Origin: Nanobdellota archaeon
GTDB taxonomy: Archaea; Nanobdellota; Nanobdellia; Pacearchaeales; GW2011-AR1
Length of the DNA stretch: 24,000 bases
Direction of reading: 5' to 3'
Assembly: GCA_024654565.1 (NCBI GenBank)
Contig: JANLHM010000005.1
Span: 223,647-247,646 of the forward strand
Position 1 is the first letter of the stretch, and every line of letters begins with the position of its first letter. The translations under genes were made by a program, and so were the position numbers. The notes beneath the pieces are model-generated. The model made no database searches. It worked only from the letters and a program-made list of their open reading frames with translations, and was not told the origin of the DNA. Positions 1 to 21,166 of the stretch are shown one piece after another.

Positions 1-3000
1 ATAAAAAGCGATATAATTAGTAAAGTGGGGGATGGAGAGAAAATAAATTCTGAATTCAATTTCCTTTTTAATGGACTTTCTGTTGATGCCACTGACGCTG
101 AAGCTAAGGAAATTGAAAAAATCAGGGGAGTAAAAAAGGCATGGCCGAATATGAAAGTTGAAGCAATGTTAATGGATTCTGTTCCTTTGATTCAGGGAGG
201 AATTCCTGCGGGAAATTTGGATCTTAACGGAAATAACTGCTTGGTTTCTGGACTGACTTGTCTTACAGGAGAGGGAGTAAAAATTGCAATAATTGATACG
301 GGTGTTGATTACACTCATCAAGATTTAGGGGGTTGTTTTGGTCAAGGGTGTAAGGTTATTGGGGGTTATGATTTTGTGAATAATGATGCTGATCCAATGG
401 ATGACATGGGTCATGGAACACATGTTGCTGCTACTGCTACTGGAAGTGGTGTTTTGAATGGTGTTGCTCCGGGTGCAAATATCTTAGCTTACAAAGTTTT
501 GGACAGTGACGGTTCTGGTTATGAAAGCGATATAATTGAAGGGATTGAGAGGGCAATTAGCGATGGTGCAGATATTATTAGTATGAGTTTGGGAGGTTAT
601 TTATGGTATCAAAATAATGAGTGGGGGCAATGTTACAATGAGGCTGGTTCATATGCTGTGGACAATGCTGTGGATTTTGGTATTAATGTAGTTGTTGCTG
701 CAGGAAACTCAGGATTTGGAGGCTCGAGTGGGTTCATGCCGGGATACAAGACAATTAATTTTCCTGGCTGTGCTAAAAAAGTTATTACTGTGGGTGCTTC
801 AACTAAAGAAGATGGAATGGCTTATTTTAGTTCTAAAGGTCCTATTAATGATTTTAGAATAAAACCGGACATTGTTGCACCCGGTTATTACATTTGTGCT
901 GCACAGCATGATGGTTGGCTAAATGATTCTCCTTGCTTAGATAGTGAACACATAAATATCTCAGGAACTTCAATGGCAACACCACATGTTGCTGGGGCCA
1001 TTGCTTTGTTAAAACAAAAAAATTCAGGTTGGACTCCTGATGAAATTAAGATGGCCCTGAAAAATACTGCTATCGATTTAGGAGAAGACATTTTCACGCA
1101 GGGATATGGAAGGATTGATATACAAAATTTAATTCGATCCCCTGAACTCCCAGTTGCAAGTCTTAATATTTCTGGAGTGTTAAGTGGGGTAGCAAATATA
1201 AAAGGAGAAATTTCTTCAAATAATTTTCAAAAGTATCGTTTAGAATATAGTGAGGGAATTGATTCAAACGAATGGAATTTATTCTTTGAGGCTCAATCAA
1301 TTCCGGCAAATGGAATTTTATACCGGTTAAATACGAATCATTTGGATGACGGTCCTTACATGATTAAATTAACAGTTATAAATGAAAATGGTGTTGTGGG
1401 TTTTGACAAATCTTTTATAATAATTTCAAATAATCCAAATGAAAAAATTAACTTAAATTGTTCTTCTTGTGGGGAATGTACTTTAAACTCATTGGTTTCT
1501 AATTCTTTAATAGTGGCTAATGAAGATCTGGAAATCTTATCTGAAGACACCCAAGTTTGTTTCACTTCTTTGAGTGACGATGTTTTATTTGATTGCAACA
1601 ATCATAAAATAATTACTAATCAAACTCCGAATTATTATGAAGGCCCTTTTGGAGCGTTAATAACGAGGGGAAAAAATGTTTCTATTCAAAATTGTTTTAT
1701 TGATGAGGGTCCTATCTTACACAATGGTGCGGGAATAACCATATTCGAAAGTTTAAATGGGAAAATCAAAAATAACACCATTGGTGATTCTTTTCATGGA
1801 ATTGAATTATTTAGGTCCATAAATTTTGAAGTTACTGAAAATAGAATAAGAGACCCTCTGGGGGATGGATCAATTTCAGTTTATGCAATATGCAAGGAGT
1901 ATTATAATCATTCAATTATAAATAACACTGTTCAAGGTTTCCCCTTTTATTATTTTTTTAATAAATCTAATGAAGAGATTGCGTTAAATTTAGTTGGCAC
2001 AGTTTCACTTGCATGGAATTCCAATTTGACCATAAAAAATAGCGTAATTAAAGGGGGGATAAACTTACAAAATAATTATAATACTAAAATTTTAAGAAAT
2101 ATGGTTGAAACTTATGAAAATGGATGGAATGGAATAATTCTGGGTAGAGAGTCTGGAGGATCATTTAATTATTATTGGTATCCTGAATGCGATAATAGGC
2201 TCAAGAATGAAAATATTTCAATTTTAAATAATACTTTGATTAATCAAGGGATAAAGATAGTTGAATATCATTCTGGAGATTCATTTGATGGAAGTCTTAT
2301 CAAAATTCAGGGAAATTCAATTTTAAATGCTAAAAATGGAATTGGGGTGTATACTCGTGCTAGTTCTGTTGTCACAACTGAGAATGATATAATCTCAGAA
2401 AATGCTATGTATAATGGCATGGATTTTTTTAATCTAAAAAATATAAAAGTAAATGTAAGCAATAATACTATTGTGGGATATAATGCTGGACTCAATGCTT
2501 ATGAAAGTGATAATATCTATTTTGTCAGTAATAAAATAAAAAATACTGTATGGCCAATTCATTATTATAATTCTAATAATACTAGTATTTTTGTAATGAG
2601 TCAAAATTCAATTCCAAATACATTTGGGAATTATAAAATTGCTATCTTTTCCGAATTTCCTCTTGAAATTTCTGATAAATATCAAGGAAATTACTGGGGA
2701 AGAACATCTGCTCCTTATTTCTGTGAGTATGGAAATCAAAATGCTAGTTGTATTGATAACTGGGATTCAAATAGACTAGATGCTATTGACTCTTGTCCTT
2801 ATGATCAGCCATATCTTCCTGGAGAATGGCCGGCATCTCCGGTTTGTCCAGATGGTACGGGGTCAAAAATCATAAACAACCAAAACGTATCAATAAATGG
2901 ACAACTTTCTATTTCTATTCAAAAAAAGGTTGGGTTGAATTGGACTTTTTATGAAAATGTTGTGAAGAATGAAAGTGTTGAACTTCCTCCTCGAGGGTTT

Positions 3001-3198
3001 TTTGATGTTCGTGGAGTATTTAATTCTCAAAATGTTTCAATAAATCAATCGGGAACTTACAGAGTTTATGGAGTTTTTGAGTATCGTTCCCTGAATTCAA
3101 ATGAGAATTTAGAGGGAATTATTCCTGCGCCAAAGACTGTTATTGCTTTTGAAGAATTCAATGTTGGATTTCAACAACCTATTTTCACTGATGAATAA
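1..3198 (+). CDS. Subtilisin-like (peptidase S8) serine protease, 5'-partial; I9-type propeptide, S8 catalytic domain and long C-terminal parallel beta-helix repeat region
   Basis: The frame of tracked ORF 25..3198 (GTG start) stays open back to nt 1, so the N-terminus lies off-window. Catalytic motifs: IAIIDTGVD (Asp), HGTHVAATA (His), AAGNSG (oxyanion Asn), GTSMATPHVAG (Ser). An I9-like propeptide (FNGLSVDATDAEAKEIEKIRGVKKAWPN) precedes them. About 600 aa downstream carry iterated Asn/Gly/Ile-rich repeats (NNTIGDSFHGIELF, NSILNAKNGIGVY, NNTIVGYNAGLNAY) typical of right-handed beta-helix (NosD/PbH1-like) repeats. Confidence 0.85.
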   Translation: MKSDIISKVGDGEKINSEFNFLFNGLSVDATDAEAKEIEKIRGVKKAWPNMKVEAMLMDSVPLIQGGIPAGNLDLNGNNCLVSGLTCLTGEGVKIAIIDTGVDYTHQDLGGCFGQGCKVIGGYDFVNNDADPMDDMGHGTHVAATATGSGVLNGVAPGANILAYKVLDSDGSGYESDIIEGIERAISDGADIISMSLGGYLWYQNNEWGQCYNEAGSYAVDNAVDFGINVVVAAGNSGFGGSSGFMPGYKTINFPGCAKKVITVGASTKEDGMAYFSSKGPINDFRIKPDIVAPGYYICAAQHDGWLNDSPCLDSEHINISGTSMATPHVAGAIALLKQKNSGWTPDEIKMALKNTAIDLGEDIFTQGYGRIDIQNLIRSPELPVASLNISGVLSGVANIKGEISSNNFQKYRLEYSEGIDSNEWNLFFEAQSIPANGILYRLNTNHLDDGPYMIKLTVINENGVVGFDKSFIIISNNPNEKINLNCSSCGECTLNSLVSNSLIVANEDLEILSEDTQVCFTSLSDDVLFDCNNHKIITNQTPNYYEGPFGALITRGKNVSIQNCFIDEGPILHNGAGITIFESLNGKIKNNTIGDSFHGIELFRSINFEVTENRIRDPLGDGSISVYAICKEYYNHSIINNTVQGFPFYYFFNKSNEEIALNLVGTVSLAWNSNLTIKNSVIKGGINLQNNYNTKILRNMVETYENGWNGIILGRESGGSFNYYWYPECDNRLKNENISILNNTLINQGIKIVEYHSGDSFDGSLIKIQGNSILNAKNGIGVYTRASSVVTTENDIISENAMYNGMDFFNLKNIKVNVSNNTIVGYNAGLNAYESDNIYFVSNKIKNTVWPIHYYNSNNTSIFVMSQNSIPNTFGNYKIAIFSEFPLEISDKYQGNYWGRTSAPYFCEYGNQNASCIDNWDSNRLDAIDSCPYDQPYLPGEWPASPVCPDGTGSKIINNQNVSINGQLSISIQKKVGLNWTFYENVVKNESVELPPRGFFDVRGVFNSQNVSINQSGTYRVYGVFEYRSLNSNENLEGIIPAPKTVIAFEEFNVGFQQPIFTDE

Positions 3199-5264: not shown

Positions 5265-8135
5265 ATGAATTTAAAAAGAGAGGTGTTTCTTCTTTTGATT
5301 ATTTTGATTATCCCTCTTAGTTATGCAGGGTCTCTTTCGCCGGACTACAATTCTTTATTAGAAAAGCATATTGCCGAAAAATCAACCTATGATTTAATCT
5401 ATGGGAAAGGTGAAGTTTATCGCGTTAAGAATGTAACACTTTCTTTTATGGAGGACAAAACTTCTTTATTTTTATATAAAAATGAATTTATTTATGAGGG
5501 GGGAATTCCCGCTGTTTACACAAATGAACATGAATTTGGGGTGGAAATAGGAGTTTATGGAAAAACCGCAATTTCAGTTGAAAAAATAAAAGTTGTTCCT
5601 TTAACTTCTGAAACTTCTTACAGCTTTTCTTCTTTTAAGGGAGAACTTGATTTTTTGGAAGTTCTTTCAGGGGAAGTACAAGTTTTTTCTAATGGAAAAG
5701 ATCTTTTTAAATTGTCAAAAGAAAAATTAAAAATAAATAAAGAAAATTTTAAACTGTTTAAGTTTTCTGATGTGAAACTTGCTGTTTATGAGGGAGAGAG
5801 TTATGTCGGCATTGGAAACTCTCCTGGACTGTTTTTTATTGATGAAATGGATAAATTGTCCGAATTCTATGACGGAGGAACCTCTTTTTTAATAGACCAA
5901 CTGAATGCGGGGTATTTTTTAAAAAAAGGTGAATATAGTTCTGCAGTTAAAAATTATGAGGCAATAATAAAAAAGTATCCAAAAGAAAATTTGAGAGAAG
6001 TTTTAATTAAAAATTCTGAATCAAAAATAAAAAAGGAATTTTTTGAATCTGAAAAGTTAACTTCTGAAGGAAAATATTCCGAAGCCGTACAAAAATATAA
6101 ATCTCTTTTAATTTTGGCAAATGATCCTGAAATAAAATCTTTAGCAAACTTTTACATCGGATACAATTATATTTTAGATGAAGACCTTAACCAGGCTTTA
6201 ATTCACTTTAATAAGGTAGACAAAGAAAGCAGTGTTTTTTTGTCTTTTAACAGCATCCTTGACGAAGAATATTATCGCCTTATTAAAGAAGAAGGAGAAA
6301 GAATTGAAAAGATTTGTAATTTACTAAAGGACCGGAGAAGTAGCGTTGGTTTTTTAACCTCGATAAAAAACATTTGGGACAATTTGTTTGATCAGGAATT
6401 TTCAAAGCAAATTAAAAGGTTTGAAGACCAGCAGTGTTATGGAAGAGTAAAAGGACTAGAGCTTCTTTCAGAGAGAGTAGAAAGTTATGGCACTTTTGAG
6501 GAAGCGGTATTGAGTTTGCCTGAAGAGGGCTACCTCAAATCTTTTACAAAATCAAATCCCCTTGTTTTTTCTCTTTTGAAAATTGAAGAACTTGGGGGTT
6601 CTTTGACTGAAGAAGACATTTTCAAAATAAATGAAGAAGTGGCAAAGAAGTACGAACTTCAGGGGGATTATGAAGGGGCATATAAAGTTTATTCTCAAAT
6701 AGTTGAAGATTATAAAAGGGTGGAAACTTCATATGGATCATATTACTTTCTTCCCGACGGAAGTTTTTCTCTTTACCAATATATTGGAGATGAGGTTTAT
6801 TCAAAAGAGAATATTCCTGCTCCTTATGGGGTTACTGACATAAAATCTTTAGAGAAAGACCCCCTTTACAAATTGTTTTTACAAAAATCTGAGGAGAGAA
6901 TAAGACTTTCAAAAATAGATGGAGTAAATCCTTACTACTCTTATTACTCTTCTGCAAATCTTGGACTTTTAAAATCTGGAATAAAAGACTTTGGGAAGGA
7001 GGCGTTTAATTTTATTAATGACGAACTTGTAAGTGTGAAAGGAATCGCTGAACAGTTTCTTTTTATAAAAGTTCTTTCTGGAGGAAAACTTGGTTACAAT
7101 TCTTTTAAGAGGTTTTCACAGGACACCGGGGGAATGATAGTTGAATCAAGAACTGGTTTTGCAAAAGTTGGGGAGGCAGAACTTTTAGCGAATAAAAACT
7201 TTGGCGTTTCCCCTCCTGCGGGGATCTTTTCAAGTTCCTCTGATTTTTCAAAATCATGGGGTGATTTTAAAATTGGAGACTATGTTAAAATTAAGCGTTC
7301 AAATCCTGGGGATAATGATGTGGGGAAAATTGTTTCTTTCTCTGACGATTCTAAGGGTTTTAGGCAATTTAGAATACAAGTTTCTGATAACCAGGGAATT
7401 CCTGTGGGCCATAAAATGTTTTCAGAAAGGTCTTTAGTAGAGTTAAATAAATTTGTTGGAAAAATAACCTCGACAAGAGCTTCTTTTTCTTTTGAAAAAC
7501 TTAGAAAAAGACATGAATTTTCTTTTTCAAATTTTTTCAATTCGTTGATGAAAAAAAAGTCTTTAGTTACGGAGTATCAATATAGTTATGGGAATCGAAA
7601 GTTTGTTTTTGTTGAGGACAAAATAAATGACCAGGTTTACGCAGATTTGTTACGAGAATTTGATGAAATTTACCTCTCCAAAGGACACTCTGTAAAAACA
7701 ATTGATGCTTTTGCAAGAGGTATCTCAAAAAGAATGGGGGGATCAGACGATGCAGCAACTGATTGTTGGGAGCATTGGAGTAGTATCATTGGAAAACAAG
7801 AAAAAACATTAACTTATATATATTTTGGAGAGTTACTTGAGGGGGGAATAGGAGTTTGTAGACACAGGTCTGTGATTTTTGATGCAGTCTTAAAGAATTA
7901 TGGTTTTGAATCAAGATGGGTTGGAGGGTATATCTCTCGCGGAGATTCTGTGGGTCATGCATGGGTGGAAATTAAAATTGGAAATAAGTGGTTTGTAGTC
8001 GAACCTGCAGAGCGTATTTATCACTTAGATAAGAGGTTTTATCCAGATAGTTATATTTCTGGAGAAGGTCTATGGGAGCACAAAATCCTTTCAAAATATC
8101 TCCTGTCTTTAATTTTTGGAAAGTTTCTAAAATAA
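5265..8135 (+). CDS. Large secreted/anchored protein with TPR-like repeats and a C-terminal transglutaminase-like cysteine protease core
   Basis: N-terminal signal/anchor MNLKREVFLLLIILIIPLSYAGS. TPR-like helices include GEYSSAVKNYEAIIKKYP, GKYSEAVQKYKSLLILAN and GDYEGAYKVYSQIVEDY. The C-terminal core GVCRHRSVIFDAVLKNYGFESRWVGGY...GHAWVEIKIGNKWFVVEP fits the Cys/His/acidic transglutaminase-like pattern. Confidence 0.7.
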   Translation: MNLKREVFLLLIILIIPLSYAGSLSPDYNSLLEKHIAEKSTYDLIYGKGEVYRVKNVTLSFMEDKTSLFLYKNEFIYEGGIPAVYTNEHEFGVEIGVYGKTAISVEKIKVVPLTSETSYSFSSFKGELDFLEVLSGEVQVFSNGKDLFKLSKEKLKINKENFKLFKFSDVKLAVYEGESYVGIGNSPGLFFIDEMDKLSEFYDGGTSFLIDQLNAGYFLKKGEYSSAVKNYEAIIKKYPKENLREVLIKNSESKIKKEFFESEKLTSEGKYSEAVQKYKSLLILANDPEIKSLANFYIGYNYILDEDLNQALIHFNKVDKESSVFLSFNSILDEEYYRLIKEEGERIEKICNLLKDRRSSVGFLTSIKNIWDNLFDQEFSKQIKRFEDQQCYGRVKGLELLSERVESYGTFEEAVLSLPEEGYLKSFTKSNPLVFSLLKIEELGGSLTEEDIFKINEEVAKKYELQGDYEGAYKVYSQIVEDYKRVETSYGSYYFLPDGSFSLYQYIGDEVYSKENIPAPYGVTDIKSLEKDPLYKLFLQKSEERIRLSKIDGVNPYYSYYSSANLGLLKSGIKDFGKEAFNFINDELVSVKGIAEQFLFIKVLSGGKLGYNSFKRFSQDTGGMIVESRTGFAKVGEAELLANKNFGVSPPAGIFSSSSDFSKSWGDFKIGDYVKIKRSNPGDNDVGKIVSFSDDSKGFRQFRIQVSDNQGIPVGHKMFSERSLVELNKFVGKITSTRASFSFEKLRKRHEFSFSNFFNSLMKKKSLVTEYQYSYGNRKFVFVEDKINDQVYADLLREFDEIYLSKGHSVKTIDAFARGISKRMGGSDDAATDCWEHWSSIIGKQEKTLTYIYFGELLEGGIGVCRHRSVIFDAVLKNYGFESRWVGGYISRGDSVGHAWVEIKIGNKWFVVEPAERIYHLDKRFYPDSYISGEGLWEHKILSKYLLSLIFGKFLK

Positions 8136-8203: not shown

Positions 8204-10720
8204 ATGGCATCTAAAAAAGAAGTTGAAGAGATTAAAGAAGCGGTTTTAGATGAAGAAGATAAGTTGTCCAAAAAGAAAAAAAGTGAAAAAATTCTGGGGT
8301 TAGAAGATTTACCTGGAATCGGTCCTGCTGCTGCCACTAAACTTGAAAGTGCGGGAGTTTTTGATTTAATGGGGCTTGCAGTTATGAGTCCTAGTTCATT
8401 GTCTGACGCTGCTGGAATTTCAAGTGCTGTTGCAAGGAAAGCAATACAGGCAGCAAGAAATATGCTTGAACTTGGATTTAGTGATGGAATTGAATTTGCA
8501 AAAAAAAGGTCAAATGTTCTTTATATTACAACTGGAAGTAAAAACTTTGATGAACTTCTGGGTGGGAGAGGGGTTGAATCAAGAGCGATAACGGAGGCAT
8601 TTGGAGCATATGGGTCTGGGAAAACGCAATTAGGATTGTCTTTAGCAGTGAATGTGCAACTTCCTATTGAACAAGGAGGAGCAGGGGGAAAAGCAGTGTA
8701 CATTGACACGGAAGGAACATTTAGGCCTCAGAGAATAAGGCAAATTGCAGAAGGAATTGGGGCTAACCCAGAGATGGTTCTAAAAAACATTCTTGTTGCT
8801 AGAGCTTTTAACTCGGACCACCAAATACTTCTTTTAGAAAAAGTTTCTGAATTAATAAAATCAGGGGAGCCAATAAAAGTTGTTGTAATTGATTCCTTAA
8901 CTGCTCACTTTAGGGCAGAGTTTGCAGGAAGAGGTCAACTTGCAGACAGACAACAAAAACTTAATCGGTATATGCATGAATTGATGAAGTTAGCAGAGAG
9001 TCATAACCTTGTAGTTTATGTAACAAATCAGGTTATGGCAAATCCCGCGCAGATGTTTGGAGACCCAACAACTGCAATTGGTGGAAATATTGTTGGACAT
9101 GCATGTTTAACGGGGGACAGTTTAATTCAATTGAATGACGGGAGAATTAAGGAAATTAGAGATATGAAAAAGGAAAAAGTTTTCTCTGGAGATCTATCAA
9201 CTTTAAAATTTGAGGTTGCAAATTCTGATAAAGTTTTTATTAATCCTAGTGTAAAAGAAGTCCATACAATTCAAACGACAAACGTTATAGAATGTTCTGA
9301 ACTTCATAAATTTTTTAGTGTTAGAGGTTTTTCTTTAATTGAAAAAGAGGCAAAAGATTTGAGAGAAGGAGATTTTATTGCTCATGCAGGGAAAGTTGAA
9401 ATTCATGGGGAAAGTCAAAGACTACCTTTGGTTAACGTCAAAAGGATTGGGAAAATTTCTGAGGAAGAAGGAAAATTGGTTTCAAATGAATTAAAAAAAG
9501 AGAATGTTACAAGAAAAGAAATTTGTGAAAAGGTGGGAATCACTCAGAGGCAATTTAGAAGGGTTCTTAATCAGGCTTACCCTGCAAATATGGAAGTATT
9601 TAACAAACTTGGTGAACACTTCTCTCAAAAGATGCAACTGCAAGTGCTACCATTTTACACTTATAAACACAAAAGTTTGATTATGCCTGAAGTAATGAGT
9701 TCGGAACTCTCTCAAATTTGTGGTTATTTCATTGGAGATGGCAATTTTGAGGAAAGAGGTTTGAGGTTTAGGGATGCAAGAGAAGAAGTTTTGCAAGTAT
9801 ACAAAAATTTATTCAAGAATATTTTTGGCGTCGAAGGGAGTATAAAGAAGATGAAAACCAAAAATTGTTTCACTTTAAACATAAATTCAAAGGAGATAAA
9901 AGATTTATTCACCCTCCTCTTACCGGATATTTTAGACATTATTGCAAAGTCAAAGAAGGATGTTGTTGGAAAATTTATTAAAGGGTTTGTCGATGCAGAA
10001 GGTCACATTGACCAAAGAAGACCGAAAATAAATATCTCTCAAAAAGAAAAACAGATTTTGAAATATTTACAGCTGTTTTTACTCAGATTTGGGATAAGAA
10101 GTTTTATTAGGTTTAATGTCGGAAATAAAAAGATCTCAAACATCTCTATAAGGGATCGTGATGTTAAAGATTACCTTCAGATTGGATTTAGTGCAAATGA
10201 TAAACAGAAAAAATTGGTAAATTGGTCAGAATATTGTCAAAAAACTTATGATAAAGAGATGATGCCTCTTGAAAGAAAAGAAATTTGGAACTTGTTAAAA
10301 GTTGCAGGCATAAAACCTTCTTGCGTTATTAAATCAAGACCTTCAGGTTACAAATGGATTAATAGGAGAGATTTGGAAAAAGCCCATTTCACCCTCATGA
10401 ATACTGAAATTAAAGACAGACAAATTAAACAGAAAGTTGAATTCATTTTTAAATTGCTCAACTCTGACTTGAGGTTTGAGAAAATTCAAAAAATAAAAGT
10501 GGCGGGAAATAAAAATAAGTCTTTACTTTATGACTTCTCTGTCCCAAAAAATGAAAATTATGTGGCGAATGGTTTTGTGGTTCATAACTCAACCTATAGA
10601 CTTTACTTAAGACGGGCAAAACAAGGTTCGAGAGTTGCAAAATTAATTGACAGCCCAAGTTTACCTGATGGAGAGGCAATTTATTACGTCACAAATCACG
10701 GAATAAAAGATAAAGAGTAA
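8204..10720 (+). CDS. radA: RadA recombinase (archaeal Rad51/RecA homologue) interrupted by an intein
   Basis: HhH LEDLPGIGPAAATKLESAGV, Walker A GAYGSGKTQ, Walker B KVVVIDS, GGNIVGHA | intein | STYRLYLRRAKQGSRVAKLIDSPSLPDGEA. The joined exteins total 343 aa, a normal RadA length. Confidence 0.95.
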   Translation: MASKKEVEEIKEAVLDEEDKLSKKKKSEKILGLEDLPGIGPAAATKLESAGVFDLMGLAVMSPSSLSDAAGISSAVARKAIQAARNMLELGFSDGIEFAKKRSNVLYITTGSKNFDELLGGRGVESRAITEAFGAYGSGKTQLGLSLAVNVQLPIEQGGAGGKAVYIDTEGTFRPQRIRQIAEGIGANPEMVLKNILVARAFNSDHQILLLEKVSELIKSGEPIKVVVIDSLTAHFRAEFAGRGQLADRQQKLNRYMHELMKLAESHNLVVYVTNQVMANPAQMFGDPTTAIGGNIVGHACLTGDSLIQLNDGRIKEIRDMKKEKVFSGDLSTLKFEVANSDKVFINPSVKEVHTIQTTNVIECSELHKFFSVRGFSLIEKEAKDLREGDFIAHAGKVEIHGESQRLPLVNVKRIGKISEEEGKLVSNELKKENVTRKEICEKVGITQRQFRRVLNQAYPANMEVFNKLGEHFSQKMQLQVLPFYTYKHKSLIMPEVMSSELSQICGYFIGDGNFEERGLRFRDAREEVLQVYKNLFKNIFGVEGSIKKMKTKNCFTLNINSKEIKDLFTLLLPDILDIIAKSKKDVVGKFIKGFVDAEGHIDQRRPKINISQKEKQILKYLQLFLLRFGIRSFIRFNVGNKKISNISIRDRDVKDYLQIGFSANDKQKKLVNWSEYCQKTYDKEMMPLERKEIWNLLKVAGIKPSCVIKSRPSGYKWINRRDLEKAHFTLMNTEIKDRQIKQKVEFIFKLLNSDLRFEKIQKIKVAGNKNKSLLYDFSVPKNENYVANGFVVHNSTYRLYLRRAKQGSRVAKLIDSPSLPDGEAIYYVTNHGIKDKE
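9104..10588 (+). mobile_element. Intein (495 aa) with LAGLIDADG homing-endonuclease domain inside radA
   Basis: The intein starts with Cys (CLTGDSLIQL, block A; tgt at 9104-9106) and ends VVHN followed by +1 Ser (aac 10586-10588, tca 10589-10591). Two LAGLIDADG motifs are present: ICGYFIGDGNF and KGFVDAEGHI. Block B is SELH. An HTH-like insert reads TRKEICEKVGITQRQFRRVL. Confidence 0.9.
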
Positions 10721-12296: not shown

Positions 12297-14150
12297 TTAA
12301 TCAAACCATACTTTCATAACACCTTTAATTTTTTTTATCCTTTTTATCGCTTCTTTTAATTCTTCTTTTGTGTTTACCAAGACAGTAAAATAACATTCGG
12401 CAAAATTGTTTCCTGATAGCTTTGCATTTGTTTCTTTAACTTTGAAGTTTTTCCTCAAGAGAGTGTTTATTATATCTGCAAGAATTCCTGACCTGTCAGA
12501 AGTTTGAACAAATATTTTGATTGGGTTTGAAAAGACTTCTTTCCATTCCGCTTTAACTTCATTTATTCTTTTTCCACTTATTCTGTTGCAGTCTTTTTTG
12601 TGTATTAATGCCTTTCTGTAAGACTTAACAATTCCAATAATTTCTTCGTCAGGTAGGGGGTTACAGCACCTTGCAAAATTTAAAAGGTGTTTTGGAAAGT
12701 CTTTTATTTCTGCTGGAGATTCTTCCCTTTCATTTAATTCTTTTTTTAGAAAGGAATCCTTTGGAACCGGAATATTCTCAAATTTTTGAACTTCTTTAGA
12801 TATAATCTTTTTTGCATATTTTGTTTTTACAAATTTTAACCAATCTCTTCTTGGTCTTTGGAATTTGTTAGTGATTATCTCAATTGTGTCCCCATTTTTC
12901 AATTCTGTTTTTAATGGGACAAACTTTCCATTAACTTTTGCTCCAATTGAGTGATTTCCCACTTCTGCATGAATTCTATAGGCAAAGTCCAGAGTCGAGG
13001 AACCAGTTGCAAGAGAAATAGATTTCCCTTTTGGGGTGTAACAATAAATTTTATCCTTAAATAAATTTAACTTAATCTCCCCAAAAAAAGAGCTTTTCTT
13101 TTCTTTTAATTTCAAAACTTCTTTTAGCCATGCAGTTTTTTTCTCAAATTTTTCATTACTTTTTATTTTCTTATATGCCCAGTGTGCAGCCCCTCCACCA
13201 TCGGCAATGTAATCCATTTCTTTTGTTCTTATTTGAATTTCAACTGTTTTAGTTCCATATTTTATACAGAAGTGAAGAGATTGATATCCATTTTCTTTTG
13301 GATTTTTGATGTAATCTTTTACCGTTCCATCCACAAGAGGATATGCACCGTTTAAAATTTCAAAAATAAGGTAGCAATCTCCTTCACTGTGAGTGATTAT
13401 CCTTACTCCAAATTGATCTCTTTGTTTGTTAAGGGGAATTTTTCTTTTTGTTATTTTTTCATATATACTGTATATTTGTTTTTCCCTTCCCTTAATTTTT
13501 ACATTTTTAATTTTTGGTTTTATCTTCTTCTCTATTTCCAAAATTATCCTTTTTATGTATCTCTCCCTCTCTCTTCTTGACATTTTTAAGAAATTAGAGA
13601 TCTCAAGATATTTCTTTGGGTTTAATGTTTTAAATGCTTCATCAGCAAGATCTTTTTTTAAATTTTTAAGTCCGAGTTTTTCGGCAAGAAACACTTCCCC
13701 CTCCATAACACTTTTTGCTTCGTCTTTATCTTTTTTGTTTTCTAATTCAACAAGTTTTGAAACTAAATGAAGGATTATTGCTTCAACATTTTCTATTGAT
13801 GAAATTATTGCCTCTTCTGGAAGTTTATCTTTTTCAAGTTTTGAGATTATAAGGATTTCTTCTAACTTTTTTTTGTTTTCTAAAATTGAAAAAATTTCTT
13901 CTCCAAATTCTTTTTTTAAAAAAGGGAAATCTCCTTTTTGAGTATCCAAAAATAAAAGTCCTGAGATAATGAGGTTTTTCTTAAATTTTTTTTTGTGTAA
14001 GTATTCTGATATCCTTATGATTTCTTTAACATTTTTACTTTTTTTCTTTTGAAGAAAATCAAGGGCTTTATTTATTAAATTTTTTTGTTCATTTGCAAAC
14101 TCTTTTTTTTCAAAAAACGACAAGAGACTTTTTTCTTCTTCTTGTTCCAT
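12297..14150 (-). CDS. Long RelA/SpoT homologue: pseudo-HD domain, (p)ppGpp synthetase domain, TGS, CC/zinc-finger and ACT/RRM domains
   Basis: Synthetase motifs GREKQIYSIYEKI, DQFGVRIIT, DYIKNPKENGYQSLH, EIQIRTKEMD, GGAAHWAYKK. TGS: IYCYTPKGKSISLATGSSTLDFAYRIHAEVGNHSIGAKVNGKFVPL...GDTIEIIT. CC motif: RCCNPLPDEEIIGIV...IHKKDCNRI. ACT: SDRSGILADIINTLLRKNFKVKE. At the HD position (AALLHDV.ED) the N-terminal region reads SGLLFLDTQKGD. Confidence 0.85.
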   Translation of the reverse strand: MEQEEEKSLLSFFEKKEFANEQKNLINKALDFLQKKKSKNVKEIIRISEYLHKKKFKKNLIISGLLFLDTQKGDFPFLKKEFGEEIFSILENKKKLEEILIISKLEKDKLPEEAIISSIENVEAIILHLVSKLVELENKKDKDEAKSVMEGEVFLAEKLGLKNLKKDLADEAFKTLNPKKYLEISNFLKMSRRERERYIKRIILEIEKKIKPKIKNVKIKGREKQIYSIYEKITKRKIPLNKQRDQFGVRIITHSEGDCYLIFEILNGAYPLVDGTVKDYIKNPKENGYQSLHFCIKYGTKTVEIQIRTKEMDYIADGGGAAHWAYKKIKSNEKFEKKTAWLKEVLKLKEKKSSFFGEIKLNLFKDKIYCYTPKGKSISLATGSSTLDFAYRIHAEVGNHSIGAKVNGKFVPLKTELKNGDTIEIITNKFQRPRRDWLKFVKTKYAKKIISKEVQKFENIPVPKDSFLKKELNEREESPAEIKDFPKHLLNFARCCNPLPDEEIIGIVKSYRKALIHKKDCNRISGKRINEVKAEWKEVFSNPIKIFVQTSDRSGILADIINTLLRKNFKVKETNAKLSGNNFAECYFTVLVNTKEELKEAIKRIKKIKGVMKVWFD

Positions 14151-14165
14151 GATAAAATTAAAATT

Positions 14166-14309
14166 CTAATTTATATATTCTTTTGTTTTTTTGCCTTTTC
14201 CTGAAAAATTCAAGAATTTATAGTGTGCGTCCTTTGTATCAAGATTACACCTTTTACACTTTTCTAAGAAAGTATATTTTTTGCATTTTTCACAAATTTT
14301 GAGTTTCAT
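14166..14309 (-). CDS. nop10: H/ACA RNP protein Nop10 (47 aa; below ORF-track size cutoff)
   Basis: My own translation of the minus strand gives MKLKICEKCKKYTFLEKCKRCNLDTKDAHYKFLNFSGKGKKTKEYIN. This matches the archaeal Nop10 zinc ribbon pattern KC.KC..YT....C..C...TK.AH...F. The position downstream of aIF2-alpha recalls the conserved archaeal aIF2a/nop10 neighbourhood. Confidence 0.75.
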   Translation of the reverse strand: MKLKICEKCKKYTFLEKCKRCNLDTKDAHYKFLNFSGKGKKTKEYIN

Positions 14310-14320
14310 ATGTTTAAAGT

Positions 14321-14713
14321 CTACTCAAGTCCAAGAATAAATTCCCTTAGTCTTGTTGGAAATTTAACGTTGAGTTTCTCTTCAGCTTCAGAGGGTTTTA
14401 TCCACTGCAGTTCCTTTACTTCTTTTCCTCTTTTTTCTTCTCCTTCAGTTGCCTCACAAAGAAAGTATAATTTTAATTTTTCTTTGTCTTCAAGATAATT
14501 TTCTGCATATATTGAACCCAAATTATGGACAATATATCCTGTTTTTTCCTTTGTTATTTTTTTTAACTCATTATCAAGTTCTTCTTCTTGACTCAAAGCC
14601 CCTTCTAGGAAGGAATACACTTTATCTTCTTTGCTTTTTCCAACTAAAATTTTCCTTGTTTTTGGGTCAAAAATTATTCCCACAATCTTGACTTTGAACA
14701 TATTTTTTTCCAT
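14321..14713 (-). CDS. Nudix-fold protein with degenerate Nudix box
   Basis: IVGIIFDPKTRKILVGK...YSFLEGALSQEEELDNELKKITKEKTGY aligns to GX5EX7REUXEEXGU. The G, first E, one E of the EE pair and the GU are kept, but RE is KI and the last E is K. There are 11 nt between its stop and the nop10 start. Confidence 0.55.
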   Translation of the reverse strand: MEKNMFKVKIVGIIFDPKTRKILVGKSKEDKVYSFLEGALSQEEELDNELKKITKEKTGYIVHNLGSIYAENYLEDKEKLKLYFLCEATEGEEKRGKEVKELQWIKPSEAEEKLNVKFPTRLREFILGLE

Positions 14714-14773: not shown

Positions 14774-15472
14774 TTAATTATATGAAAATTCTACATTTTC
14801 TTTTTTTGTGGCCAATTCAATACTCTCAATTATCTCTTTCATTTTTTGGGTTGCTTTTTTGATGTCATTCCCGTCAATTTGAAGAGAGTAATTTCCTGCT
14901 GCAAGGTATCTTATATCCTCCCCTTTTTTCATGAGTATCTTTTTTATTAATTTTAATCCATCTGGGTCATTTGAAGTAAGTTTTATCTGTTTTTTTACCT
15001 GGATATTCTTGCTTTTGTGTTTTTTTAAGATCTCTATTATTTTAATTGCATCTTCTTCTCCTGTGAATTTTTTAAGTTCAGAAGAGTTTGATTTTGACAT
15101 TTCGAGAAATTCGGAAAGTTGGTGTTCTTTTTTTATTTTATTGATTATTCCTTCGCTTTTGTCCTTTAAAATAGATTTTAAAATTCCCCCATAACTTTTC
15201 TCTGTTTTACTCTTTTCCAGAATTTCTTTTTTTTCTTTTTCTTTTACTCTTCTAAGTGAAAGTTCTATGTAATCTTTCATGACTCTCAAGACTTTGCATA
15301 CTATCGTTTTTTTTGGGACAACATAATCTCTTAGATTTCTTATTCTTCCAGCAGAAATTTCACTTAAAATTATTGTTCCTTTTTTTTCAGTCCCATCTAT
15401 ATCTACAAAGACAGTTGTTCCAACTATTTTGTCAACGGTGCATATAAGTATATCTCCTTGTTCAATTTCCAT
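14774..15472 (-). CDS. eif2a: Translation initiation factor aIF2 alpha subunit
   Basis: S1 domain GDILICTVDKIVGTTVFVDI...ILSEISAGRIRNLRDYVVPKKTIVCKVLRV...IELSLRRV, and a C-terminal alpha/beta domain with IRYLAAGNYSLQIDG. The nop10 neighbourhood supports the call. Confidence 0.85.
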   Translation of the reverse strand: MEIEQGDILICTVDKIVGTTVFVDIDGTEKKGTIILSEISAGRIRNLRDYVVPKKTIVCKVLRVMKDYIELSLRRVKEKEKKEILEKSKTEKSYGGILKSILKDKSEGIINKIKKEHQLSEFLEMSKSNSSELKKFTGEEDAIKIIEILKKHKSKNIQVKKQIKLTSNDPDGLKLIKKILMKKGEDIRYLAAGNYSLQIDGNDIKKATQKMKEIIESIELATKKENVEFSYN

Positions 15473-17934: not shown

Positions 17935-18006
17935 GCGGAGGTGGCACAATGGTACTGCGTTCGCCTGCAGAGCGAATTTTCGTGGGTTCGATTCCCACCC
18001 TCCGCT
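17935..18006 (+). tRNA. tRNA-Cys (anticodon GCA)
   Basis: GCGGAGG TG GCAC AATGGTA CTGC G TTCGC CTGCAGA GCGAA TTTTC GTGGG TTCGATT CCCAC CCTCCGC T. The discriminator is U73 and the 13:22 pair is non-Watson-Crick, both typical of tRNA-Cys. No CCA is encoded. Confidence 0.9.
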
Positions 18007-18069
18007 TTATGTCACTTGCTAGTGATAATTAACCAAACATTTAAATATTCTTTTTTTTCATCTATATTT

Positions 18070-19101
18070 ATGAATAATAAACTTGAAATTGAACTTTTTA
18101 ATAAAGTTCAAGATTTAGACGACCTTGGAAAGGACTTTTCTTTAGAGGACTCTTTGTTAATTGTTTCAGGGGTTGACTCAGTAAAAAAATTGAAAAGATG
18201 CAAGAAAAAAATCGGGAAACTCCATTCTTTGTATAAGAATTATTCTGGAGAAGGAACAGATTTCGAGAGAGCAAAATTACTTTTCAAATTTCTTTGGAAA
18301 GGAAAGTATGACCTCTATCTTGAAGGGAATCATCCTGATGATTTTAATGTTAGAAGATTAGATAGGGCTGTTGAAAAAGCAATTTTAAGAAAAGACAATT
18401 CTATTGGAAATTGCGTCGGATTGACTAATCTTGGAGCGATTTTGGGTTTAAGAGAAGGATTAAAGTTTTGTTCTTTGATTTTTCCAGATCATGTCGCTTT
18501 ATCTTTAAGGAATAAAAGAAAACGTATTAATCTTGATTTGACTAGTGAAGATGAAGGGTTTAATTTTAAATATTCAAATAAGGATAAAAAGAATATGTCA
18601 GAAAAAAGAATTGAATATCTTTTGCCAATTTTAATTGGTGAAAAATCAAATTCAAAAGCATTTTTTGGAGATTATAAAAATTCTTTTAAGTATGCACAGA
18701 AAGCATTTGAAATTACGGATGATAAGGATTTTTTTAGTTTACTTGGTTGGCTGAGCCTTAATACAAAAAATTTTGTCAAATCCAGAGAGTATAATGAAAA
18801 ATCAATAAACTTCAATAAAAGAGATCCTATCCCTTATTTAAACAATTCCGTTGCCTTGATGAAAGTGGAGAAATACAAAAAGGCATTAAAAAATATTAAC
18901 ATTGGAATTAATATTGATCCGAAAGACTCTGTTTCTTATCTTTATAGGGCAGATTTGCATTTCAGGATGTCAAATTATGAAAAATCTTTGAAAGATTATC
19001 AAAAGGCATTGTCTATCAAAGATGAAGAATTTGGAAAAGGAGATTTAGAATTTGCAAAAAGAAGGATTAAGAGGATAAAGAGAAAATTAAATAGGGACTA
19101 A
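18070..19101 (+). CDS. Transglutaminase-like/TPR repeat protein (SirB1/YchA-like architecture)
   Basis: IGNCVGLTNLGAILGLREGLKFCSLIFPDHVALSL resembles the G.C..L..L...L...LGL......P.H core of transglutaminase-like + TPR proteins. C-terminal TPR-like helices include KYKKALKNINIGINIDPKD and NYEKSLKDYQKALSI. The start is trimmed from tracked 17941, which overlaps tRNA-Cys, to the ATG at 18070, which has a TATA-like box about 26 nt upstream. Confidence 0.6.
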   Translation: MNNKLEIELFNKVQDLDDLGKDFSLEDSLLIVSGVDSVKKLKRCKKKIGKLHSLYKNYSGEGTDFERAKLLFKFLWKGKYDLYLEGNHPDDFNVRRLDRAVEKAILRKDNSIGNCVGLTNLGAILGLREGLKFCSLIFPDHVALSLRNKRKRINLDLTSEDEGFNFKYSNKDKKNMSEKRIEYLLPILIGEKSNSKAFFGDYKNSFKYAQKAFEITDDKDFFSLLGWLSLNTKNFVKSREYNEKSINFNKRDPIPYLNNSVALMKVEKYKKALKNINIGINIDPKDSVSYLYRADLHFRMSNYEKSLKDYQKALSIKDEEFGKGDLEFAKRRIKRIKRKLNRD

Positions 19102-20842: not shown

Positions 20843-21166
20843 GTAAGTCGGGGAGCTGACTTTCGGGACTTTAGTGTTAAATCACAAAGAAATGAATTAT
20901 GATTTCTAAGTTCTGAGGAAGGTCCGCCCATCACTAAAAACCACTTTCCGAAAGGGAAGTTCCTGTGAAGGAAAGCTCTTGCTACAGAAACGCCACAGCC
21001 GTTTTTGAGTTATGACTCGTGAGATGAACTAGGAAGAAACGGATTTGATGAAACGAGCACCTTGGTTGATGCAAAGGTAACTTAAGTGTATGCCTGCTTA
21101 GTCGAATGTCAGCATGTTTGGTCTGATTAACAGCAAACAACAGAAGGTGGCCTACCCTGACTTACG
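20843..21166 (+). ncRNA. rnpB: RNase P RNA (archaeal type)
   Basis: CR-I is GAGGAAGGUCCGCCC (about 20914-20928). The ACAGAAA motif occurs at CUACAGAAACGCC (about 20982-20994). AGAUGAAC is also present. CR-V is AACAGAAGGUGGCCUAC (about 21139-21155). P4 forms between AGG(U)CCGCC and GGUGGCCU with the classic bulged U. P1 forms between GUAAGUCGGGG (20843-20853) and CCCUGACUUAC (21155-21165). The region is a GC-rich island in AT-rich DNA. Confidence 0.85.

What the first reader, a model, noticed from the sequence alone, without database searches (positions are those of the whole stretch)
12297..14713. Full-length bacterial-type long RelA/SpoT homologue with a dead hydrolase domain, embedded in an archaeal translation-gene cluster
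The 617-aa protein has the complete long-RSH architecture: pseudo-HD, synthetase, TGS, CC/zinc-finger motif RCCNPLPDEEIIG...HKKDC, and ACT/RRM. The synthetase motifs look intact (RxKxxxSxxxK as GREKQIYSIYEK, DQFGVRI, NGYQSLH, EIQIRT, AAHWAYK). The hydrolase HD dyad and the downstream hydrolase-domain DR..H region are replaced (LLFLDTQKGD). This is the RelA-like, synthetase-only configuration. Long RSH enzymes are regarded as bacterial/plastid proteins and are rare or absent in archaea, yet every neighbouring gene here is archaeal. The RSH also shares the local Lys-rich, AT-rich composition, so it does not look like a contaminating contig fragment. It sits 15 nt downstream of nop10, which sits 11 nt downstream of a Nudix-fold gene. 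All three lie on the same strand behind aIF2-alpha, which suggests co-transcription with translation factors. A possible alarmone system in a reduced archaeon, wired to translation genes, would be new biology.
Basis: partly seen in the sequence, partly recalled or inferred. Interest (0 to 1): 0.7.

Follow-up and report, generated by a model that had tools for sequence, protein, structure and literature searches.

The report
Hydrolase-dead RelA-like alarmone synthetase in DPANN archaea
A tiny archaeon carries an intact copy of the bacterial "stringent response" enzyme that makes the starvation signal ppGpp but cannot destroy it; it is one member of a large, vertically inherited archaeal clade, whose presence in DPANN archaea one genomics paper mentions, while recent reviews still say archaea lack this system.

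Summary
ORF 12297-14150 (-) encodes a 617-aa long RelA/SpoT homologue (GenBank MCR4327372.1, Nanoarchaeota MAG). Its synthetase, TGS, zinc-finger and ACT/RRM regions are intact. All hydrolase metal ligands and the catalytic Glu-Asp pair are gone. The contig is archaeal and not chimeric: five independent assemblies share the gene order.

The interpretation needs correcting on three points.
- The gene is not an isolated transfer. It belongs to a monophyletic archaeal clade (100% bootstrap, at least 133 sequences at 37-100% identity) in which every member examined lacks the hydrolase site and keeps invariant synthetase residues.
- A second archaeal clade keeps a complete hydrolase site. It is the likely sister (73%, neighbour-joining only). 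This resembles the RelA/SpoT split.
- The link to translation genes is positional. The aIF2alpha-Nudix-nop10 module exists unchanged in relatives without the RSH. Distant clade members sit in other contexts. The Nudix protein lacks two catalytic glutamates family-wide, so it is a poor candidate for the missing hydrolase.

RelA/SpoT in DPANN archaea was reported in one sentence in 2021 (PMC8407392). Reviews from 2023-2026 still call the system absent from archaea. I found no report of the clade-wide dead hydrolase. Activity, trigger, targets and the degrading enzyme remain inferred.

The parts
12297..14150 (-). Long RelA/SpoT homologue gene, 617 aa (GenBank MCR4327372.1)
   Evidence: ORF. Pfam. 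PDB alignments. Identical NCBI protein. AF2 and Foldseek.
13623..14150 (-). Pseudo-hydrolase (degenerate HD) domain, about aa 1-176, all-helical
   Evidence: No Pfam HD_4 hit. H53E, H77F, D78L and D144S, with E81/D82 and R44/K45 lost. The fold is retained: helices H3-H210 in the AF2 model and Foldseek to the T. thermophilus Rel N-terminal region 6s2u at TMt 0.73, rmsd 3.3. TIGR00691 aligns from residue 47.
13101..13622 (-). (p)ppGpp synthetase domain, about aa 177-350 (Pfam core aa 221-328 = 13167-13490)
   Evidence: RelA_SpoT at 109 bits. The catalytic and substrate residues GRxK..S...K, D245, K278-D279, K285, N287, Y289, S291, H293, E304, Q306 and R308 are present and invariant in the clade.
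12870..13049 (-). TGS domain, aa 368-427
   Evidence: Pfam TGS 3.1e-21. H394, the equivalent of E. coli RelA H432 in the alignment, is invariant in 68 clade members.
12687..12863 (-). Alpha-helical / ribosome-intersubunit linker region, aa 430-488
   Evidence: Aligned to B. subtilis Rel up to residue 474. Precomputed Pfam PF28438 RelA_RIS on this protein. Low pLDDT at 465-474.
12561..12686 (-). Zinc-finger (CC) domain, aa 489-530, RCCNPLP...HKKDC
   Evidence: Aligned to E. coli RelA 606-647. C495, C496, H517 and C521 are invariant.
12309..12521 (-). ACT/RRM domain, aa 544-614
   Evidence: Pfam ACT_4 3e-13. Beta-alpha-beta-beta-alpha-beta in the AF2 model.
14166..14309 (-). Short nop10 (47 aa), upstream neighbour. 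Context only, not part of the system.
   Evidence: NCBIfam Nop10 1e-6, residues 1-29 only. Pfam Nop10p on orthologues. Present next to Nudix in genomes without the RSH.
14321..14713 (-). Nudix-fold gene (130 aa) with a non-canonical Nudix box. Context only.
   Evidence: Pfam NUDIX 4e-6. The MutT E53 and E57 equivalents are I and K here, and V/I/T and K in 118/120 homologues. The family occurs with aIF2alpha and nop10 without the RSH.
14774..15472 (-). aIF2 alpha subunit. Context only.
   Evidence: Pfam EIF_2_alpha and NCBIfam PRK03987.

Best explanation
The gene encodes a functional, synthetase-only long RSH. It is an archaeal analogue of RelA, not a descendant of it.

Shown. All five long-RSH domains are present and fold confidently. 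Every catalytic residue of the pyrophosphokinase site and every residue that contacts the guanine nucleotide is kept and is invariant across a large archaeal clade. The hydrolase metal and catalytic residues are lost in the whole clade and are most eroded in the window's subclade. The gene is vertically inherited in Nanoarchaeota-type DPANN archaea (MAGs labelled Nanoarchaeota, Woesearchaeota and Pacearchaeota).

Inferred. The enzyme transfers pyrophosphate from ATP to the 3'-OH of GDP/GTP to make (p)ppGpp. Like RelA, it is switched on when its C-terminal half docks on a ribosome that holds deacylated tRNA in the A site. The relevant elements are the TGS domain with the invariant CCA-sensing His394, the helical linker, the CCHC zinc finger and the ACT/RRM domain. 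The alarmone is removed by a separate enzyme. That could be the second archaeal long-RSH type with an intact hydrolase site, or an unidentified hydrolase.

Its position behind aIF2alpha-Nudix-nop10 probably gives co-transcription in this family. It is not a conserved functional module.
For: Domain hits are.

Hydrolase and synthetase survey. All ~60 bacterial controls read R.HHDEDDRHNT at the hydrolase positions. All 120 closest homologues plus archaeal loci L001-L012 and L050 lack D78 (with 4 exceptions that still lack the rest), E81/D82, D144, R145 and H147. The synthetase positions are invariant.

Invariant columns include D245, Y289, H293, E304, Q306, H394, C495, C496, H517 and C521. The AF2 model has pLDDT 84.2, and Foldseek gives 5iqr at E 1e-34, 7qpr at TMq 0.52 and 6s2u at TMt 0.73.

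The pseudo-HD clade is monophyletic in 100/100, 99/100 and 100/100 bootstraps. Synteny is conserved in independent assemblies from Logan, NCBI, ENA and JGI at 69, 60, 55 and 48% identity. A different conserved synteny (RSH ... RsmB/F) holds in 10 deeper loci.

The intact-HD archaeal type lies on contigs with TFB, aRF1 and L10P (L035) or LonB, Kae1, aIF6 and SRP54 (L049).
Against: No biochemical or in vivo data exist for any archaeal long RSH. (p)ppGpp was not detected in the archaea tested so far, although those species lack this gene (PMC10249747, PMC8646023).

No hydrolase partner was found in the 24-kb window. No genome was shown to carry both RSH types. In bacteria a synthetase without a hydrolase is toxic.

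Whether an archaeal ribosome can dock and activate a RelA-type C-terminal half is untested. The protein scores below NCBIfam's trusted cutoff for TIGR00691 (386 against 499 bits). The window subclade has TxKD where bifunctional enzymes have RxKD.
Confidence: 0.7

Rival explanations
1. The RSH forms a functional module with its upstream neighbours. It is co-regulated with translation initiation (aIF2alpha) and rRNA modification (nop10), and the adjacent Nudix protein acts as the alarmone-degrading partner that replaces the dead hydrolase domain.
For: The genes share a strand with 60-, 11- and 15-nt spacers. The aIF2alpha-Nudix-nop10-RSH order is conserved in five assemblies down to 48% RSH identity. 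Nudix enzymes that degrade ppGpp are known in bacteria; Atkinson et al. mention the Thermus case.
Against: GAN-aIF2alpha-Nudix-nop10 is intact in three related genomes with no RSH there; an MJ0043_C-domain gene fills the slot. RSH clade members at 37-44% identity have none of these neighbours. The Nudix family is much more conserved than the RSH (at least 120 clusters at 57-78% identity). Its Nudix box lacks the equivalents of MutT E53 (V/I/T, never E) and E57 (K in 118/120).
Confidence: 0.1
2. The synthetase makes a different product, for example (pp)pApp, or it pyrophosphorylates another acceptor such as the tRNA 3' end, as some small RSH toxins do. It would then not be a (p)ppGpp system.
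For: RSH synthetase domains are known to have diversified in product (established knowledge of the Tas1 and FaRel2-type enzymes). No ppGpp has been detected in any archaeon. The RxKD motif is altered to TxKD in the window subclade.
Against: All residues that line the GDP/GTP site in long RSHs (K304, N306, Y308, S310 and H312 in Rel numbering, the NGYQSLH loop) are invariant across the clade and identical to bacterial Rel. The closest sequences and folds are (p)ppGpp-making long RSHs, not toxSAS enzymes.
Confidence: 0.12
3. The protein is an enzymatically decaying relic or a purely structural ribosome-binding factor. After losing the hydrolase, the synthetase is also non-functional in vivo.
For: The N-terminal domain is strongly eroded: an 8-aa deletion and no Pfam HD_4 hit. 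DPANN genomes undergo reductive evolution (PMC8407392). The score is below the TIGR00691 cutoff.
Against: The full-length ORF is intact. Forty-eight columns, including every synthetase catalytic residue, are invariant in 68 sequences that are only 38-69% identical to the window protein. That is strong purifying selection on the active site.
Confidence: 0.06
4. Assembly or binning artefact: a bacterial fragment was joined to an archaeal contig.
For: Long RSHs are typical of bacteria. The source is a MAG.
Against: The same gene order flanked by archaeal genes appears in independent assemblies from four sources. There is no GC break. The closest 133 sequences are all from archaeal-labelled or archaeal-context contigs, and the best bacterial hits are at most about 30-36% identical. 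The contig is 253 kb.
Confidence: 0.01

Closest known systems
E. coli RelA (gamma/beta-proteobacterial long RSH, [hS])
   Same: Same five-region architecture. The hydrolase domain is inactive but its fold is kept. The synthetase is intact. The TGS His (RelA H432 = H394 here) and the CC...H...C zinc finger are present. It is the best Foldseek hit (5iqr, E 1e-34). RelA also has Phe at the H77 position.
   Different: Independent origin. Sister to EcRelA in only 19/100 bootstraps, against 73/100 with the archaeal intact-HD clade. Mean distance to RelA (1.62) is larger than to other Rel proteins (1.36-1.41). The motif is TxKD/RxKD, not RelA's ExDD. It is 617 aa against 744 aa. The host is an archaeon with an archaeal ribosome.
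Bifunctional Rel (B. subtilis 6yxa, S. equisimilis 1vj7, T. thermophilus 6s2u)
   Same: Comparable sequence similarity (1.3e-75 to 6yxa). Identical synthetase and G-nucleotide residues. The deeper clade members keep RxKD. The N-terminal fold matches at TMt 0.73.
   Different: The Mn2+ ligands H53, H77, D78 and D144 and the E81/D82 pair are all lost, so it cannot be bifunctional. NCBI names for relatives ('bifunctional (p)ppGpp synthetase/...pyrophosphohydrolase') overstate the function.
Second DPANN long-RSH clade with intact hydrolase site (L035, L048, L049, L059)
   Same: Archaeal contigs (TFB, aRF1, L10P, LonB, Kae1, aIF6). Same domain architecture. Likely sister clade (53-73% bootstrap).
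   Different: It has the complete R.HHDEDDRHNT hydrolase signature, with Pfam HD_4 at 151 bits and an HD hit. It is only 31-36% identical to the window protein.
RelA/SpoT reported in DPANN genomes (PMC8407392, mSystems 2021)
   Same: It is the same gene family in the same lineages: 69% of Diapherotrites, 41.7% of Woesearchaeota, 21.3% of Pacearchaeota and 19% of Nanoarchaeota, judged to be of bacterial origin.
   Different: That paper gives one sentence and a supplementary tree. The passage retrieved from it does not mention domain architecture, catalytic-site status, two clades or gene context.
Archaeal small RSHs (divRel SAS of Methanosarcina acetivorans, Mesh1-L and pbcSpo SAHs; Atkinson 2011, PMC3153485)
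   Same: They are RSH-superfamily members found in archaea and attributed to transfer from bacteria.
   Different: Those are single-domain, sporadic and lack ribosome-sensing regions. The 2011 survey found no long RSH in archaea.

Membership tests
Long RSH (Rel/RelA/SpoT-type RelA/SpoT homologue) | RelA_SpoT synthetase domain above the Pfam gathering score | tested here: met
   PF04607 at 109.2 bits against a cutoff of 27, residues 221-328
Long RSH (Rel/RelA/SpoT-type RelA/SpoT homologue) | Synthetase catalytic and substrate residues (Rel numbering R241, K243, K251, D264, K297-D298, K304, N306, Y308, H312; E324/Q326) | tested here: met
   All present. Invariant in 120 homologues plus 13 archaeal loci and in alignments A1 and A2.
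Long RSH (Rel/RelA/SpoT-type RelA/SpoT homologue) | N-terminal HD-fold domain preceding the synthetase | tested here: met
   No Pfam HD_4 hit on this protein. Even so, TIGR00691 aligns from residue 47 and T. thermophilus Rel aligns from residue 45. Most clade members hit PF13328. The AF2 model superposes on the Rel N-terminal region 6s2u at TMt 0.73.
Long RSH (Rel/RelA/SpoT-type RelA/SpoT homologue) | C-terminal regulatory half: TGS, helical/RIS region, zinc-finger (CC) and ACT/RRM | tested here: met
   TGS at 75.6 bits and ACT_4 at 50.7 bits. Residues 489-570 align to RelA 606-693. PF28438 RelA_RIS is precomputed for this protein. CCHC is invariant.
Long RSH (Rel/RelA/SpoT-type RelA/SpoT homologue) | NCBIfam TIGR00691 spoT_relA whole-protein trusted cutoff | tested here: not met
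   386.1 bits against a cutoff of 499.2. This explains the PGAP name 'TGS domain-containing protein'. It reflects divergence and the eroded N-terminus, not a missing domain.
Long RSH (Rel/RelA/SpoT-type RelA/SpoT homologue) | (p)ppGpp synthesis activity, ribosome- and deacyl-tRNA-dependent | not testable with these tools
   Needs enzyme assays. Only residue conservation supports it.
Bifunctional Rel/SpoT [HS] (the name NCBI gives to relatives) | Hydrolase Mn2+ ligands H53, H77, D78, D144 and catalytic E81-D82 | tested here: not met
   Window protein: E, F, L, S, with E81/D82 absent. The whole clade lacks D78/E81/D82/D144, while about 60 bacterial controls and 4 other archaeal loci have all of them.
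Proteobacterial RelA subfamily [hS] | Inactive hydrolase with intact synthetase | tested here: met
Proteobacterial RelA subfamily [hS] | ExDD motif in place of RxKD | tested here: not met
   E. coli RelA has EFDD. The window protein has TVKD, and deeper clade members have RxKD.
Proteobacterial RelA subfamily [hS] | Phylogenetic placement with RelA | tested here: not met
   With full-length E. coli RelA and SpoT, sister to RelA in 19/100 and sister to the archaeal intact-HD clade in 73/100. A partial-length analysis gave 55/100 with RelA, probably long-branch attraction. These are NJ trees with a single RelA, so the result is provisional.
Nudix hydrolase (neighbouring gene 14321-14713) | Nudix box GX5EX7REUXEEXGU with catalytic glutamates | tested here: not met
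   G38, E44, K/R52 and E56 are kept. The E53 equivalent is I (V/I/T in the family, never E). The E57 equivalent is K in 118/120. The Pfam NUDIX hit is weak (27.3 bits). There is no PDB sequence match.

The most novel reading that the evidence does not exclude
Nanoarchaeota-type DPANN archaea may run a genuine, lineage-native stringent response on archaeal ribosomes. One ancient acquisition of a bacterial Rel would have been followed by duplication inside the archaea into a synthetase-only sensor (this clade) and a hydrolase-competent enzyme (the L035/L048/L049 clade). That would parallel the RelA/SpoT split of Proteobacteria. It would be the first alarmone-based growth-control system in Archaea. 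It would also mean that the RelA C-terminal sensor can read deacylated tRNA on a non-bacterial ribosome.
Probability: 0.3. Interest if true: 0.75.

Novelty: new member of a known kind. Interest (0 to 1): 0.5.

Why it matters
Current reviews and primary papers still say that RSH enzymes and (p)ppGpp signalling are absent from Archaea (PMC10249747 from 2023, PMC11646218 from 2024, PMC12934967 from 2026). The data here show the opposite for one archaeal lineage. A large, selectively maintained archaeal clade of ribosome-sensor-type alarmone synthetases exists, and a second clade keeps the hydrolase.

That gives concrete proteins for testing whether an archaeon makes ppGpp. It also allows tests of what activates a RelA-type sensor on an archaeal ribosome, and of what the alarmone targets in cells that lack the bacterial RNA polymerase and DksA.

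It also corrects database annotation. Relatives are labelled 'bifunctional synthetase/hydrolase' although none of those examined has a hydrolase active site. For symbiotic, genome-reduced DPANN cells, a starvation alarm coupled to tRNA charging could be central to dependence on the host.

Tried and rejected
1. Chimeric contig. Rejected on synteny in independent assemblies and the absence of a GC break.

2. Nudix as the missing hydrolase, or an aIF2alpha/nop10 functional module. Rejected as the main reading: the module exists without the RSH, the RSH exists without the module, and the Nudix box is degenerate.

3. Descent from proteobacterial RelA. A partial RelA fragment grouped with the clade at 55%. 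Full-length RelA and SpoT with a better alignment dropped this to 19%.

4. Midpoint rooting placed the root inside the fast-evolving archaeal clade. I replaced it with outgroup rooting and bootstraps.

5. Bacterial donor. The nearest bacterial sequences (Acidobacteriota, Hydrogenedentota, Nitrospirota-like and others) are all about equally distant at 25-36% identity. No donor can be named.

6. Prior classification. I looked for this clade in the supplements of Jimmy et al. 2019/2020 held as text and found no archaeal entries.

7. Structural information for the Nudix. A PDB sequence search gave no hit. BLAST to MutT aligned only the C-terminal half, but that confirmed the register.

8. L048 flanks (ADK, Fic, HATPase) were uninformative about domain of origin. 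L035 and L049 flanks settled the archaeal origin of the intact-HD type.

9. Both RSH types in one genome. None of the 17 archaeal genomes recovered shows both. The pattern-based scan (two peptide patterns, best 80 of at least 599) cannot exclude it.

10. The window holds no HD-domain or other obvious alarmone hydrolase candidate.


Full report
WHAT IS THERE

The ORF at 12297-14150 on the minus strand is 617 aa. Pfam finds RelA_SpoT at residues 221-328 (109 bits), TGS at 368-427 and ACT_4 at 544-614. There is no HD_4 hit. phmmer against PDB sequences aligns residues 113-439 and 489-570 to ribosome-bound E. coli RelA (5iqr, 8.9e-76). It aligns residues 75-474 to B. subtilis Rel (6yxa, 1.3e-75). 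The second RelA segment covers the RCCNPLP...HKKDC zinc-finger motif.

An AlphaFold2 model built on 68 clade members is confident (pLDDT 84.2, pTM 0.78). Its best Foldseek matches are RelA on the 70S ribosome (E 1e-34), full-length SpoT (TMq 0.52) and Rel N-terminal fragments. The match to T. thermophilus Rel 6s2u (TMt 0.73, rmsd 3.3 A) shows that the degenerate N-terminus still has the HD fold.

The protein is identical to GenBank MCR4327372.1, 'MAG: TGS domain-containing protein [Nanoarchaeota archaeon]', on a 253-kb contig. aIF2alpha (14774-15472) lies 60 nt further upstream.

The window is archaeal. It carries an archaeal RNase P RNA (146 bits), RadA with an intein, RPA, aEF-1beta and a GAN-type DHH protein. 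There is no compositional break at the gene.

ACTIVE SITES

I recovered the B. subtilis Rel sequence with its numbering from the PDB alignment. I aligned it with the 120 closest database homologues and with RSH proteins translated from 80 genome loci.

- Controls. All roughly 60 bacterial proteins show the full hydrolase signature R44, H53, H77, D78, E81, D82, D144, R145, H147, N148, T151.
- Window protein. It has H53E, H77F, D78L, D144S, R145K, H147V and N148E. It has no E81/D82 equivalents, and an 8-residue deletion removes R44/K45.
- Synthetase. The residues G240, R241, K243, S247, K251, D264, R269, K297, D298, K304, N306, Y308, S310 and H312 are all present.
- Clade conservation. In alignments of 21 and 68 clade members, the window positions D245, K285, Y289, S291, H293, E304, Q306, R308 and T309 are invariant. 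So are H394 and C495, C496, H517, C521. H394 is the equivalent of RelA H432, the TGS histidine that reads the deacylated CCA end (role from established RelA/Rel work).

IT IS A CLADE PROPERTY, NOT A ONE-OFF

The hydrolase loss is not specific to this gene. All 120 closest homologues (37-100% identity, 606-666 aa) lack the site, as do archaeal loci L001-L012 and L050. Specifically they lack D78 (four exceptions keep Asp but lack the rest), E81/D82, D144, R145 and H147. This holds even though most still score as Pfam HD_4. H53 and H77 survive in deeper members. The window's subclade (P0001-P0017) has lost these too and no longer hits HD_4. The picture is one of ancestral inactivation followed by continuing erosion.

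Neighbour-joining trees with 100 bootstraps give the following:
- The pseudo-HD clade is monophyletic in 100, 99 and 100 replicates.
- The window subclade is supported at 98%.

Names attached to members include Nanoarchaeota, Candidatus Woesearchaeota, Candidatus Pacearchaeota, Candidatus Nanoarchaeia and unclassified 'archaeon'. Flanking genes in distant members are archaeal: MCM, TBP, aIF2beta and ATP-dependent DNA ligase.

A SECOND ARCHAEAL TYPE

Four archaeal-labelled loci (L035, L048, L049, L059) are 31-36% identical to the window protein. They carry the complete hydrolase signature and have strong HD_4 and HD Pfam hits. L035 is flanked by TFB, aRF1 and L10P/P0. L049 is flanked by archaeal LonB, Kae1, aIF6 and SRP54/FtsY. 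These contigs are archaeal.

This trio is monophyletic (100%). It is the sister of the pseudo-HD clade in the point-estimate trees, with 53% support and 73% once full-length E. coli RelA and SpoT are added under a more careful alignment.

E. coli RelA is sister to the archaeal clade in only 19% of replicates with full-length data. A partial fragment gave 55%, which I attribute to long-branch attraction. The mean distance from the clade to RelA (1.62) exceeds that to other Rel proteins (1.36-1.41). The clade also has RxKD or TxKD where RelA has ExDD.

The hydrolase was therefore lost independently of proteobacterial RelA. The data are compatible with, but do not prove, one acquisition followed by a RelA/SpoT-like duplication within DPANN archaea. 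No bacterial donor can be named, because the nearest bacterial sequences are all about equally distant.

GENE CONTEXT

The order aIF2alpha-Nudix-nop10-RSH is conserved in relatives at several identity levels, as shown below. All of these except the JGI/NCBI contig (48% identity) also carry UDG on the opposite strand, then NDK and RadA, after the RSH.

| RSH identity to window | Source |
|---|---|
| 69% | two Logan assemblies |
| 60% | NCBI GCA_027343665.1 |
| 55% | ENA |
| 48% | JGI/NCBI |

In two of these the short nop10 was not called, but it is present. This rules out a chimera and shows vertical descent.

The association is not functional linkage, for four reasons.
1. Three related genomes have GAN-aIF2alpha-Nudix-nop10 followed by an MJ0043_C-domain gene and no RSH; two of the three then have NDK.
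2. Clade members at 37-44% identity lack all these neighbours. They sit next to MCM/TBP or a SLFN_AlbA_2 gene. In 10 loci they sit upstream of an RsmB/F-type methyltransferase.
3. The Nudix protein belongs to a family far more conserved than the RSH, with at least 120 clusters at 57-78% identity.
4. Its Nudix box is in exact register with E. coli MutT. It keeps G38, E44, R/K52 and E56. It has V/I/T at E53 (never Glu) and Lys at E57 in 118 of 120 sequences.

It is therefore unlikely to be a canonical pyrophosphatase and is a weak candidate for the missing alarmone hydrolase. Co-transcription of the RSH with nop10 in this family remains plausible from the 15-nt spacer, but it is untested.

HOW IT MOST LIKELY WORKS

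Shown: the fold, the domain set, and invariant synthetase, G-nucleotide, TGS-His and zinc-finger residues under purifying selection. The hydrolase site is destroyed.

Inferred from the RelA/Rel mechanism: the enzyme makes (p)ppGpp from ATP and GDP/GTP. It is activated when the C-terminal half binds a ribosome with deacylated tRNA in the A site. A separate enzyme must degrade the product. No candidate lies in the window, and I could not test whether the same genome carries the intact-HD type.

Downstream targets in an archaeon are unknown.

WHAT IS KNOWN

- The 2011 RSH survey found only sporadic small RSHs in archaea and stated that archaea lack long RSHs (PMC3153485).
- A 2021 DPANN comparative-genomics paper reports RelA/SpoT in 69% of Diapherotrites, 41.7% of Woesearchaeota, 21.3% of Pacearchaeota and 19% of Nanoarchaeota. 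It judges the gene to be bacterial in origin, in one sentence (PMC8407392).
- The 2023 review of archaeal second messengers and papers from 2024 and 2026 still describe the system as rare or absent in archaea.
- I found no report of the clade-wide dead hydrolase, the two archaeal types or the context analysis. My literature access is limited to the held library.

VERDICT

It is not a singular transfer event and is not wired to translation genes. It is one member of a sizeable, vertically inherited DPANN clade of RelA-like synthetase-only long RSHs whose presence, though not its character, is already published.

I rate it a new member of a known kind, with moderate interest (0.5). The higher-interest reading is a native two-enzyme stringent response on archaeal ribosomes. 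It remains open at roughly 0.3 probability.

Limits: the trees are NJ only, there was no whole-genome search for a hydrolase, and there is no experimental evidence.

Noticed in passing
window 14321-14713 (-); L089-L091: The 130-aa Nudix-fold protein belongs to a very conserved DPANN family (at least 120 clusters at 57-78% identity). It sits between aIF2alpha and nop10 whether or not an RSH follows. Its Nudix box lacks the MutT E53 and E57 equivalents family-wide (V/I/T, and K in 118/120). Its role next to aIF2alpha is unknown.
   Followed up: yes
window 14166-14309 (-): nop10 is only 47 aa, and the NCBIfam model matches only its first 29 residues (the zinc ribbon). Orthologues are 37-57 aa, and gene callers miss them in some assemblies.
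   Followed up: partly
L086 7059-8072 (+) (GCA_018221285.1): In one distant clade member, a 337-aa protein with only a RelA_SpoT synthetase-like domain (Pfam 4e-8) lies immediately downstream of the long RSH. This may be a small alarmone synthetase-like paralogue.
   Followed up: partly
L002, L003, L006-L011, L087, L088: In the deeper part of the clade, an RsmB/F (NOL1/NOP2/Sun)-type RNA methyltransferase lies 0.04-5.5 kb downstream of the RSH on the same strand in 10 loci. E. coli relA is likewise adjacent to an rRNA methyltransferase gene (rlmD). This may be coincidence.
   Followed up: partly
window 8204-10720 (+): RadA carries an intein with a LAGLIDADG homing-endonuclease domain, giving 838 aa. 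RadA in the syntenic relatives is 342-343 aa and has no intein.
   Followed up: no
P0011, P0027, P0030, P0057, P0071 and others: NCBI and JGI label many clade members 'bifunctional (p)ppGpp synthetase/guanosine-3',5'-bis(diphosphate) 3'-pyrophosphohydrolase'. None of the members examined has the hydrolase catalytic residues. This is probably systematic over-annotation.
   Followed up: yes
L001, L004, L005, L008, L012: Five loci are titled 'uncultured Methanosarcinales archaeon' (TPA assemblies). Their RSHs fall in the same clade as those of Woesearchaeota/Nanoarchaeota MAGs. L008 shares the RSH...RsmB/F synteny. The taxonomic label looks doubtful.
   Followed up: no
window 17935-18006 (+) and 17941-19101 (+): The predicted tRNA-Cys overlaps the mechanical GTG start of the 386-aa TPR-containing ORF. 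The real start of that ORF must lie further downstream.
   Followed up: no
window 20843-21165 (+): Archaeal RNase P RNA (Rfam RF00373, 146 bits). Four tRNA genes are also present in the window.
   Followed up: no
window 25-3198 (+) and 5265-8135 (+): Two large proteins are a 1057-aa S8 subtilase and a 956-aa TPR plus transglutaminase-like protein. The syntenic relatives examined do not have them at the corresponding positions.
   Followed up: no
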